In this document: positions 7,841 through 9,049 of the stretch, piece by piece
Numbering within the stretch: position 1 is the stretch's first letter
Layout of the letters: each line of letters opens with the position of its first letter
Origin: an uncultured bacterium
Lineage (GTDB): Bacteria; JAGOEH01; CAYLKS01
Direction of reading: 5' to 3'
Length of the DNA: 64,000 nucleotides
NCBI GenBank assembly: GCA_964384205.1
Contig: CAYLKS010000003.1
Span: 12,337-76,336, forward strand
Position numbers and translations under genes: made by a program
Notes under the pieces: generated by a model
The model's database searches: none
Told to the model about the DNA's origin: nothing
The model's input: the letters and a program-made list of their open reading frames with translations, nothing else

Positions 7841-9049
7841 TCATTTCGTCAAATTATAAAATTCTATTGCTACTTTTGCAGTTTCTACCAGGTAGTCATT
7901 CTTAAAATTAAAAATCTTAATTTTAGAATTCTCACTATTTATCTGTGAATCAATAATATTTTTATTATTTACCTCATCATCTATTTCAATATCTAAACAA
8001 TGTAATTTGTCAATAACATGTTTTCTAATCGCAGGATATAAATTAGAGTATCTCCCTGAAAAAACAATTGCATCTGGCATATTATCAAAATCAGGCATAA
8101 ACCCTGATATAGTACTTGCAATTTGATTTATAAAAAAATTATAAATATCTTTCTCTGGCTGTTTATTATTATTATAAGCATTAATAAAATCATCAAAATT
8201 CAAATCAAAATTATCAGCCATTCCTCTAAGACCTGACTTTTCATATAAAATATTTTTCAAAGAATTCAAAGAATAATTTGAATGCTCTAATAAATATATA
8301 ATAACAGCAGCATCTATGGTCCCAGCCCTTGTAAGTGTAGGCAAACCAGCAAAAGTTCCAAACCCTGTACTAATATTTTTAGCCTTGCCATTTTCTATTA
8401 CAGAAATTGACATTCCCCTGCCTAAAAAACAACTTATAATAGAAAGTTCTTTTTTGCTTTTTCCTAATTTTTCACTAAGTTTATCCAGATTCTCTCTATG
8501 TATTAACCCATGGTAACCATATCTTCTAATTTTATATTTATTTACTATATCTTTAGGTAATGCATATAACTTATTATGTTCCGGCATATCGTTAAAAAAA
8601 TGATTATCAAAAACTGCTATCTGATTGGTATTCTCTAATAATCTTTCAGCAGCTTTTATTAGTAATAAATTATAAACATTATGAAGTGGGGCAAGTGGTG
8701 TTAAATCTTCTATTGTTTTTATAATATCATTGCTTATATATGCTGCCATTGGAATATCATAACCACCATGCACAACTCTATGAGCAATTATATCTATTTG
8801 CTCTTCGCTCTTAATAACCCCATATTTACTATCCTTAAGCCATTTAATTACTTCTTGCAAACCAGAAACATAATCTGGAAAAAACTTTTTTATTACAATA
8901 TTTTTCTCATTTGAAAAAAATATCTTCAAAAAAGATCCCTCATCACCAATATCGCTCACTTTACCTCTCATTAAAATACTTGAAAAATTACCATCATAAA
9001 AAATAAAACTAAATTCATTTTTATATGCAGACAAACTTAAAACTTTCAT
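7841..9049 (-). CDS. ackA: Acetate kinase family protein, degenerate nucleotide-binding motifs
   Basis: AHRVVHGG, LAPLHN, AVFD, RRYGYHG, TRAG, SGLRG and DAIVFSG mark the AckA fold; NxGSSS, HLGNG and GIGEN are not conserved. Confidence 0.75.
   Translation of the reverse strand: MKVLSLSAYKNEFSFIFYDGNFSSILMRGKVSDIGDEGSFLKIFFSNEKNIVIKKFFPDYVSGLQEVIKWLKDSKYGVIKSEEQIDIIAHRVVHGGYDIPMAAYISNDIIKTIEDLTPLAPLHNVYNLLLIKAAERLLENTNQIAVFDNHFFNDMPEHNKLYALPKDIVNKYKIRRYGYHGLIHRENLDKLSEKLGKSKKELSIISCFLGRGMSISVIENGKAKNISTGFGTFAGLPTLTRAGTIDAAVIIYLLEHSNYSLNSLKNILYEKSGLRGMADNFDLNFDDFINAYNNNKQPEKDIYNFFINQIASTISGFMPDFDNMPDAIVFSGRYSNLYPAIRKHVIDKLHCLDIEIDDEVNNKNIIDSQINSENSKIKIFNFKNDYLVETAKVAIEFYNLTK

What the first reader, a model, noticed from the sequence alone, without database searches (positions are those of the whole stretch)
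7841..9049. Acetate kinase homologue that keeps acyl/phosphoryl residues but rewrites every nucleotide-binding loop
Seen versus Methanosarcina thermophila AckA: R91 (HRVVHGG), D148 (VFD), H180 (YHG) and R241 (TR) are kept. NAGSSS becomes SAYKNE, HLGNG becomes FLGRG, TAGIGEN becomes SGRYSN, and TNEE becomes KNDY. No pta is nearby, and the gene is coupled (ATGA overlap) to an LPS heptosyltransferase. Known: Entamoeba acetate kinase uses PPi and has an occluded adenosine pocket. Inference: a pseudokinase/acyl-phosphate sensor, or an enzyme with a non-ATP phosphoryl donor.
Basis: partly seen in the sequence, partly recalled or inferred. Interest (0 to 1): 0.6.

Follow-up and report, generated by a model that had tools for sequence, protein, structure and literature searches.

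The report
Acetate kinase paralogue without ATP site
This uncultured vent bacterium has a normal acetate kinase, and also keeps a second, well-folded copy in which every ATP- and magnesium-binding residue is replaced but the acetate/phosphoryl residues remain, so it is probably a non-kinase ligand-binding protein of untested function.

Summary
Window 7841-9049 (-) encodes a 402-aa full-length acetate kinase homologue (Pfam 268 bits; AlphaFold pLDDT 96; TM 0.91-0.93 to solved acetate kinases). It keeps R91, H123, D148, H180 and R241. It has none of 12 nucleotide/Mg hallmark residues.

The genome also has a canonical ackA (next to 2-oxoacid:ferredoxin oxidoreductase genes), a pta and a buk elsewhere.

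The gene is not decaying. Intact orthologues (38-46% identity to each other across genomes) occur in both other genomes of the order, one named Candidatus Delongbacteria by NCBI, and on a metagenome contig. All four carry the same losses and share new invariant residues (S7, E12, N149, R211, N384). Synonymous sites are saturated while pN is 0.17-0.44. The paralogue evolves about three times faster than the canonical enzyme.

An exhaustive search of 1.84 billion representatives finds no further members. The ATGA coupling to the GT9 gene is real but specific to this genome. The Entamoeba PPi-kinase signatures are not met.

Best reading (about 0.5): a pseudo-acetate kinase that binds a small acyl/phosphoryl ligand. 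A non-nucleotide phosphotransferase is not excluded (about 0.25).

Other degenerate AckA lineages exist. One lies in tandem with a canonical ackA.

An earlier scan note on this window covers only the adjacent candidate sRNA.

The parts
7841..9049 (-). Divergent acetate kinase paralogue (P0001, 402 aa). It has the ASKHA fold, keeps the acyl/phosphoryl residues, and has lost all nucleotide/Mg motifs.
9054..9059 (-). Shine-Dalgarno sequence AGGAGG, 4 nt upstream of the ATG, inside the 3' end of the GT9 gene.
   Evidence: Sequence read
9046..10065 (-). GT9 glycosyltransferase (heptosyltransferase-like, P0002). Its stop overlaps the paralogue's start (ATGA).
   Evidence: The coupling is specific to this genome.
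10038..10904 (-). LpxL-family lipid A acyltransferase-like gene (P0003) in the same co-oriented gene string.
10910..12829 (-). AsmA-like membrane protein (P0310). It has no Pfam match and is assigned by Atlas features and structure only.
12829..13725 (-). CheV-type CheW-REC protein, the first Pfam-assigned gene of the tightly packed string.
7587..7626 (-). The only terminator-like hairpin plus T-run downstream of the paralogue. It is shared with a candidate small RNA noted earlier by the scan.

Best explanation
The gene encodes a selectively maintained pseudo-acetate kinase. It is an old paralogue of AckA that keeps the two-domain ASKHA fold and the half of the cleft that holds the carboxylate and the transferred phosphoryl group. 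That half comprises R91, V93, L122, H123, D148, F/Y179, H180 and a basic residue at 241.

It can no longer bind a nucleotide or the catalytic Mg2+. N7, G9, S10, S12, K14, H208, N211, G239, D283, G331, E334 and E384/E385 are all replaced.

Shown here:
- the residue losses;
- their conservation in four orthologues;
- purifying selection;
- an intact predicted fold;
- a separate canonical ackA, pta and buk in the same genome.

Inferred:
- The protein binds a small anionic acyl/phosphoryl ligand, such as acetyl phosphate, a short-chain carboxylate or phosphate.
- It reports that ligand through conformation or protein contacts rather than by making ATP.
- The new invariant pair E12 (PHOSPHATE1 hairpin) and R211 (PHOSPHATE2 hairpin) may bridge the two domains where the ATP phosphates normally do.

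I put about 0.8 on 'not an ATP/Mg-dependent acetate kinase but a maintained, re-purposed paralogue'. I put about 0.5 on the specific non-catalytic ligand-binding reading.
For: Homology and fold:
- Pfam Acetate_kinase 268 bits over residues 13-382.
- AlphaFold2 pLDDT 96.2 and pTM 0.93.
- Foldseek TM 0.91-0.93 to 1g99, 2iir, 6ioy and 1tuy.

Site changes:
- 24 positions that are at least 85% conserved in canonical enzymes are absent from all four clade members.
- 38 positions, including H90, R91, L122, H123, N124, D148, H180 and G212, are shared.
- 12 clade-specific invariants include S7, E12, N149, R211 and N384, all in cleft motifs.
- The ADENOSINE loop is unconserved within the clade (RYSNL, EIVLA, INGAK, DTILA). 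This argues that nothing specific binds there.

Published residue roles:
- N7, S10, S11, S12 and K14 are hallmark PHOSPHATE1 residues.
- N211 contacts the beta-phosphate.
- G331 contacts the alpha- and beta-phosphates and is conserved in all ATP-dependent ACKs (PMC4390882).
- E384 is the proposed metal ligand, and the E385A mutant of the P. gingivalis enzyme is inactive.
- R91 and R241 bind the acetate carboxyl group (PMC6461089).

Selection:
- All four ORFs are intact at 38-72% identity.
- For P0123 versus P0274, pN is 0.17 and pS is 0.78, which is saturated.
- dN is 0.50-0.67, against 0.15-0.22 for canonical AckA in the same genome pairs.

Redundancy: a canonical ackA scores 484 bits and overlaps a 2-oxoacid:ferredoxin oxidoreductase gamma gene by 4 nt. 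A pta scores 449 bits, and a buk is present.

The TIGR00016 score is below its trusted cut-off, 260.8 against 293.4.
Against: - No ligand, activity or partner has been tested.
- Retention of D148 and H180, both tied to catalysis in the true enzyme, fits an enzyme as well as a binder.
- R241 is not strictly kept (R, K, H, K).
- No gene neighbourhood is conserved that would suggest an output pathway.
- The model's coordinates could not be inspected, so the E12-R211 bridge and the pocket shape are untested.
- The model was built on an alignment made mostly of canonical enzymes, which favours a canonical fold.
Confidence: 0.5

Rival explanations
1. It is still an enzyme, but one that moves a phosphoryl group without a nucleotide. 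Examples are transfer between acetyl phosphate and Pi/PPi/polyphosphate or another acceptor, and hydrolysis of an acyl phosphate. The retained R91/H123/D148/H180 centre would do the chemistry, with the new R211 in place of Mg2+.
For: - The residues nearest the transferred phosphoryl and the carboxylate are invariant in the clade, including D148.
- A new invariant Arg sits at the beta-phosphate position 211.
- There is precedent: Entamoeba ACK uses Pi/PPi (PMC5517563).
Against: - The signatures of the Entamoeba-type group are not met. There is no extra Gly in PHOSPHATE2, and Gly stands where that group has Asp.
- According to that paper PPi probably occupies the beta/gamma-phosphate positions, yet both hairpins that line them are rewritten here.
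- The proposed metal ligand E384 is hydrophobic in all four members, and metal is indispensable for known ACKs (PMC6461089).
Confidence: 0.25
2. It is a non-catalytic partner subunit that pairs with the canonical AckA of the same cell and modulates it. TsaB does this for its ASKHA paralogue TsaD.
For: - All three genomes that have the paralogue also have a canonical AckA.
- In an unrelated metagenomic lineage, a degenerate AckA homologue (P0143, 1 of 12 hallmarks) lies 60 nt upstream of a fully canonical ackA (P0318).
- TsaB is a paralogue of TsaD that works in complex with it (PMC9654439).
Against: - In this clade the two genes are never adjacent. They lie on different contigs.
- Co-occurrence with a near-universal fermentation gene is uninformative.
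- A pure scaffold would not need R91, H123, D148 and H180 to stay invariant.
- No interaction test was run.
Confidence: 0.12
3. It remains an NTP-dependent short-chain acid kinase whose nucleotide site has been rebuilt from different residues.
For: - Full-length homology and an intact fold.
- The acetate-pocket residues V93, L122 and F/Y179 are kept.
Against: - None of the 12 nucleotide/Mg hallmarks remains.
- The ADENOSINE loop is not conserved even among the four orthologues.
- Single substitutions at N211, G239 or G331 already cost 6- to 200-fold in activity (PMC4390882).
- E385A abolishes activity in the P. gingivalis enzyme (PMC6461089).
Confidence: 0.08
4. It is a decaying duplicate on its way to becoming a pseudogene.
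For: It evolves about three times faster than the canonical enzyme and sits on a long stem branch of 0.72.
Against: - Four intact ORFs of 401-402 aa persist after synonymous sites have saturated.
- pN is 0.17-0.44, against pS of 0.78 or more.
- 110 of 402 positions are invariant, including new clade-specific ones.
- There is a strong SD and translational coupling.
- The model is confident.
Confidence: 0.03

Closest known systems
ATP-dependent acetate kinase AckA (Methanosarcina thermophila 1G99/1TUY, Thermotoga maritima 2IIR, Porphyromonas gingivalis 6IOY)
   Same: - Same length and the same two-domain ASKHA fold (TM 0.91-0.93).
- 30-32% identity.
- Shares R91, V93, L122, H123, D148, H180, G212 and D246.
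   Different: - PHOSPHATE1, PHOSPHATE2, LOOP3, LOOP4 and ADENOSINE are all replaced, as is the E384/E385 metal site.
- It scores below the TIGR00016 cut-off.
- It is not linked to pta or to an oxidoreductase, whereas the genome's canonical copy is linked to an oxidoreductase.
PPi/Pi-dependent acetate kinase of Entamoeba histolytica (4H0O) and the related Anaerolineaceae sequences
   Same: - Same family.
- In this protein, bulky residues (R333, Y334) stand where ATP enzymes have G331-I332, as Q323-M324 do in the Entamoeba enzyme.
   Different: - PHOSPHATE2 is not extended by a Gly.
- Gly, not Asp, precedes the bulky pair.
- The bulky pair is not conserved among the orthologues.
- The metal ligand is lost.
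Non-catalytic ASKHA relatives: TsaB (paralogue and partner of TsaD), ROK-family repressors and MecR2
   Same: - These are ASKHA-fold proteins that gave up phosphoryl transfer and act by binding a ligand or a partner.
- ROK repressors and MecR2 appear as distant fold matches.
- TsaB is described as a paralogue of TsaD in PMC9654439.
   Different: - There is no specific sequence relationship, so the resemblance is one of principle only.
- None of them derives from the acetate kinase family.
Other degenerate AckA-like lineages in metagenomes (P0126 Endomicrobiia, P0129 Caldisericota, P0143, P0151, P0222)
   Same: - They keep R91, H123, D148, H180 and R241 while losing 5 to 12 of the 12 nucleotide/Mg hallmarks.
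- P0143 and P0222 also have Arg at position 211.
   Different: - They are separate branches. Their patristic distance to this clade is 2.4-3.0, no closer than canonical AckA at 2.43.
- Their contexts differ. Some keep ADENOSINE and E384.
- The sources annotate them simply as acetate kinase.

Membership tests
Acetate/propionate kinase family (Pfam PF00871, ASKHA superfamily) | Full-length sequence homology above the family threshold | tested here: met
   268.2 bits against a cut-off of 22, covering residues 13-382 of 402.
Acetate/propionate kinase family (Pfam PF00871, ASKHA superfamily) | Two-domain ASKHA fold of acetate kinase | tested here: met
   The AF2 model has pLDDT 96.2. Foldseek TM is 0.91-0.93 to 1g99, 2iir, 6ioy and 1tuy. 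The model rests on an alignment made mostly of canonical sequences.
Functional acetate kinase (EC 2.7.2.1; NCBIfam TIGR00016 ackA) | Score above the curated TIGR00016 cut-off | tested here: not met
   260.8 bits against a cut-off of 293.4. All equivalog models are far below their cut-offs.
Functional acetate kinase (EC 2.7.2.1; NCBIfam TIGR00016 ackA) | PHOSPHATE1 hallmark residues N7, S10, S11, S12 and K14 | tested here: not met
   The residues here are S7, K10, N11, E12 and S14. The orthologues read S, P, N/S/H, E, E. Residue roles are from PMC4390882.
Functional acetate kinase (EC 2.7.2.1; NCBIfam TIGR00016 ackA) | PHOSPHATE2 H208 and N211, and LOOP3 G239 | tested here: not met
   The residues here are F208, R211 and L239. 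R211 is invariant in the clade.
Functional acetate kinase (EC 2.7.2.1; NCBIfam TIGR00016 ackA) | ADENOSINE motif G331-I-G-E-N | tested here: not met
   The motif reads R-Y-S-N-L here and varies among the orthologues.
Functional acetate kinase (EC 2.7.2.1; NCBIfam TIGR00016 ackA) | Metal-binding E384 | tested here: not met
   Y386 aligns to E384, and the orthologues have Leu. The role is from PMC6461089.
Functional acetate kinase (EC 2.7.2.1; NCBIfam TIGR00016 ackA) | Acetate/phosphoryl-site residues R91, H123, D148, H180 and R241 | tested here: met
   All five are present in this protein. R91, H123, D148 and H180 are invariant in the clade. Position 241 is R, K, H or K.
Functional acetate kinase (EC 2.7.2.1; NCBIfam TIGR00016 ackA) | ATP-dependent phosphorylation of acetate | not testable with these tools
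   This needs an enzyme assay.
PPi-dependent acetate kinase (Entamoeba type) | PHOSPHATE2 loop extended by a second Gly | tested here: not met
   There is no insertion relative to M. thermophila AckA across residues 200-240. The feature is described in PMC5517563.
PPi-dependent acetate kinase (Entamoeba type) | Conserved Asp immediately before the residues that occlude the adenosine pocket | tested here: not met
   An invariant Gly (FSG) occupies that position. The feature is described in PMC5517563.
PPi-dependent acetate kinase (Entamoeba type) | Bulky side chains at the G331/I332 positions | tested here: inconclusive
   The pair is R-Y in this protein but E-I, I-N and D-T in the orthologues. 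Pocket geometry could not be inspected.
Butyrate kinase (TIGR02707) | Score above the curated cut-off | tested here: not met
   35.5 bits against a cut-off of 289.1. The genome has a separate buk on contig C6.

The most novel reading that the evidence does not exclude
The clade is a nucleotide-free acyl-phosphate module. It would be an acetyl-phosphate sensor or an acetyl-phosphate-driven phosphotransferase in which an E12/R211 pair replaces ATP and Mg2+ in closing the cleft. In this genome it would be wired into an envelope operon (CheV, AsmA-like, LpxL-like, GT9), so that fermentative state feeds into outer-membrane assembly. Together with the other degenerate AckA lineages seen here, it would define an unrecognised functional class within the acetate kinase family.
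Probability: 0.15. Interest if true: 0.75.

Novelty: new variant of a known kind. Interest (0 to 1): 0.45.

Why it matters
Databases treat the acetate kinase family as uniformly catalytic. The sources that name these sequences call them 'acetate/propionate family kinase'.

A conserved member with no nucleotide or metal site shows that metabolic reconstructions from MAGs can over-count acetate kinases.

It also suggests that the 'urkinase' fold has been re-used, at least once and probably several times, for something other than ATP synthesis.

If the ligand proves to be acetyl phosphate, this would be a dedicated protein receptor for that global signal. My literature searches turned up no such receptor.

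The practical value is limited. The clade is known from three MAGs and one metagenome contig of an uncultured lineage, and no function is demonstrated.

Tried and rejected
- **Word-index protein search with the single sequence.** It returned only canonical, low-GC acetate kinases. The orthologues appeared only with whole-genome searches and a profile.
- **Numerical dN/dS.** Synonymous sites are saturated in every pair (pS at least 0.78), so only pN versus pS and dN relative to canonical AckA could be given.
- **Expression.** No RNA holder was listed.
- **Population variation.** Contigs of four DNA runs cover the gene only in 150-265-nt fragments, with a single A>G difference at 8985. This is too little for a within-population test.
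- **Conserved gene neighbourhood.** None was found. This genome has GT9/LpxL/AsmA-like neighbours. The relatives have a V-ATPase operon plus an opposite-strand tRNA-Gly, with TamB downstream in one. The GT9 orthologue of G001 is followed by glycerophosphotransferase-like genes.
- **Origin of the paralogue.** The nearest branch in the tree is a set of Peregrinibacteria (CPR) acetate kinases. That placement is most likely long-branch attraction. The clade is not sister to the lineage's own canonical AckA, so the donor is unresolved.
- **Rfam.** No match in 7000-14500.
- **Literature.** No paper pairs acetate kinase with a pseudokinase or an inactive paralogue of this family.
- **Complex prediction.** Not run. 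A homo- or heterodimer with AckA would pass by likeness to solved AckA dimers. A pairing with GT9 has a low prior because the adjacency is not conserved.

Full report
**What is there**

Window 7841-9049 on the minus strand is an intact 402-codon ORF.
- Its ATG (9049-9047) overlaps the TGA of the upstream GT9 glycosyltransferase gene (ATGA).
- AGGAGG precedes it at 9059-9054.
- The product matches Pfam Acetate_kinase over almost its whole length (268 bits).
- It falls below the curated cut-off of the NCBIfam ackA model (260.8 against 293.4) and far below every equivalog model.
- Its best solved relatives are the acetate kinases of Thermotoga, Porphyromonas and Methanosarcina thermophila (E 1e-58 to 1e-65).

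**Check of the observation**

The alignment to M. thermophila AckA has no gap up to about residue 280, so the numbering is shared.
- Kept: R91, V93, L122, H123, D148, H180, G212 and R241.
- PHOSPHATE1 changes from N-A-G-S-S-S-L-K to S-A-Y-K-N-E-F-S.
- PHOSPHATE2 changes from H-L-G-N-G to F-L-G-R-G.
- LOOP3 G239 becomes L.
- LOOP4 D-F-R becomes N-F-D.
- ADENOSINE G-I-G-E-N becomes R-Y-S-N-L.
- P-T-N-E-E becomes K-N-D-Y-L.

The metal ligand E384 aligns to Tyr, not Asp.

No PTA_PTB match lies on the window's contig.

**Is it a lone oddity or a family?**

Whole-genome searches show that this genome is the only member of its family. Only two other species representatives share its order.
- Both have an orthologue: P0123 and P0124, 38% identical to P0001 and 45% to each other.
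- A fourth member (P0274, 72% identical to P0123) lies on Logan metagenome contigs.
- NCBI names the P0123 source 'Candidatus Delongbacteria bacterium'.
- A profile of the clade, scored against 1.84 billion representative proteins, gives over 700 bits for the clade. The score then drops to 274 bits for ordinary acetate kinases.

The clade is therefore confined to this small lineage as far as public data go.

All four members share the losses. Across 56 diverse canonical sequences, 24 positions that are 86-100% conserved are absent from all four. These include N7, G9, S10, S12, K14, H208, P232, M238, G239, D283, G331, E334, E384 and E385.

Of 146 family representatives scored on 12 nucleotide/Mg hallmarks, 76 keep all 12. 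Only five keep none, and three of those five are this clade.

**Selection**

All four ORFs are intact at 401-402 codons.
- Synonymous sites are saturated in every pair (pS at least 0.78).
- Non-synonymous differences are 0.17 (P0123 versus P0274) to 0.44.
- For the same genome pairs, canonical AckA has dN 0.15-0.22 and the paralogue 0.50-0.67.

The paralogue therefore evolves about three times faster than the canonical enzyme, but clearly under constraint.
- 110 of 402 positions are invariant in the clade.
- 38 of these are shared with canonical enzymes, including H90, R91, L122, H123, N124, D148, H180 and G212.
- 12 are clade-specific: S7, E12, Y60, W70, L130, N149, N187, L188, R211, S315, N364 and N384.
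- Five of the 12 sit in cleft motifs.
- The ADENOSINE loop differs in all four members, as expected if nothing specific binds there.

This is the pattern of a re-purposed site, not of decay.

**Fold**

An AlphaFold2 model on a 66-sequence alignment is confident throughout (pLDDT 96.2, pTM 0.93). It superposes on solved acetate kinases at TM 0.91-0.93. The alignment is dominated by canonical sequences, which favours this outcome.

**The rest of the genome**

- A canonical ackA (P0125, 484 bits, all motifs intact) lies on another contig. It overlaps the gamma subunit gene of a 2-oxoacid:ferredoxin oxidoreductase by 4 nt.
- A pta (449 bits) and a butyrate kinase flanked by amino-acid dehydrogenases are also present.

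The ordinary acetate-forming, ATP-yielding step is therefore already covered.

**Context**

In this genome the gene closes a tightly packed co-oriented string: CheV, an AsmA-like protein (Atlas lead only), an LpxL-family acyltransferase, GT9, and then the paralogue.

In the relatives the gene stands alone.
- It follows a V-type ATPase operon and an opposite-strand tRNA-Gly(CCC).
- TamB lies downstream on the Logan contig, and unrelated genes lie downstream in G001.
- The GT9 orthologue of G001 is followed by glycerophosphotransferase-like genes.
- The V-ATPase operon of this genome is followed by a different 251-aa ORF, not the paralogue.

The coupling to LPS genes is therefore lineage-specific and cannot carry a functional argument. 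AsmA-family genes lie near the paralogue in two different arrangements, which is at most a weak hint.

**Origin**

The clade is monophyletic (SH-aLRT 100) on a long stem of 0.72 substitutions per site.
- It is not sister to the lineage's own canonical AckA.
- Its nearest branch is a group of Peregrinibacteria sequences. That placement is most likely long-branch attraction, so the origin is unresolved.

**Mechanism**

Published mutagenesis and structures assign the following roles:
- PHOSPHATE1 residues are needed for catalysis.
- N211 contacts the beta-phosphate.
- G331 contacts the alpha- and beta-phosphates.
- R285 contacts the adenine ring (PMC4390882).
- E384 is the proposed metal ligand, and metal is indispensable.
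- R91 and R241 bind the acetate carboxyl group (PMC6461089).

On that basis, the half of the cleft that holds nucleotide and metal is gone, and the half that holds the carboxylate and the transferred phosphoryl remains.

My best reading (about 0.5) is a pseudo-acetate kinase that binds a small acyl/phosphoryl ligand and signals by conformation or contacts. E12 and R211 face each other from the two phosphate hairpins and could close the cleft without ATP. This is an inference that I could not test.

A nucleotide-independent phosphotransferase or acyl-phosphatase remains possible (about 0.25), because D148 and H180 are invariant.

The Entamoeba PPi-kinase model does not fit. Its two diagnostic features, an extra Gly in PHOSPHATE2 and an Asp before the occluding pair (PMC5517563), are absent.

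**Wider pattern**

The profile search also surfaced other degenerate AckA-like lineages: P0126 (Endomicrobiia), P0129 (Caldisericota), P0143, P0151 and P0222.
- They keep R91, H123, D148, H180 and R241 while losing 5-12 of the 12 hallmarks.
- Two of them also have Arg at position 211.
- They are no closer to this clade than canonical enzymes are.
- One, P0143, lies 60 nt upstream of a fully canonical ackA and next to a hydrogenase-like sensor kinase.

That tandem pair gives some support to a partner-subunit model of the TsaB/TsaD kind (PMC9654439). In the present clade, however, the two genes are unlinked.

**Verdict**

This is a new, strongly degenerate variant within a well-known family. It is maintained by selection, and its function is unknown but constrained. 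Interest is moderate. It is a clean candidate pseudoenzyme in a family not known to have any, but it is known from only four sequences of an uncultured lineage and has no functional handle yet.

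Noticed in passing
window 7587-7716 (-): A TTGACA-17-TAATAT promoter-like site at 7716-7688 and a strong hairpin plus T-run at 7626-7587 lie between the paralogue and the convergent gene. The scan has already described this as a candidate C-rich small RNA (note e1-5040862). There is no Rfam match.
   Followed up: partly
window 10038-10904 (-): The LpxL-family acyltransferase reads H-F-S-N-F-M where the family has HX4(D/E). The same gene string therefore holds a second enzyme homologue with an altered catalytic motif (also noted as e1-5040864).
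   Followed up: no
window 10910-12829 (-): This 639-aa protein has an N-terminal membrane anchor and no Pfam match even at E 5. Atlas features (0.97) and structure (TM 0.60) point to the AsmA family.
   Followed up: partly
L040:6001-8477 (JGI metagenome 3300056997): A degenerate AckA homologue (P0143) lies in tandem with a canonical ackA (P0318). Fumarase and aconitase genes lie upstream. An Fe-hydrogenase-like histidine kinase and response regulators lie downstream.
   Followed up: partly
L043:3054-6076 (ENA ERZ27227314, Caldisericota): A partly degenerate AckA homologue (P0129, 4 of 12 hallmarks) is wedged between a class II aldolase gene and a PEBP-family gene with a 4-nt overlap, ahead of a sugar ABC transporter.
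   Followed up: no
L016:5359-5430 and L017:10027-10099: A nearly identical tRNA-Gly(CCC) gene on the opposite strand sits between the V-type ATPase operon and the paralogue in both relatives. A conserved TTGACATT lies in the spacer and is probably the tRNA promoter.
   Followed up: partly
L001:1498-2805 (G000 contig C31); L030, L031: The canonical AckA of this lineage carries a C-terminal extension of about 35 residues, rich in Lys and Glu (436-445 aa in total). The extension is shared by all three genomes. G002 has a third, 49%-identical AckA on contig C316.
   Followed up: no
window 6062-7588 (+): This 508-aa ORF converges on the paralogue, overlaps aspS by 4 nt and has no Pfam match. In G001 the GT9 orthologue is followed by Glyphos_transf genes, so this may be a divergent relative of those (compare note e1-5040861).
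   Followed up: no
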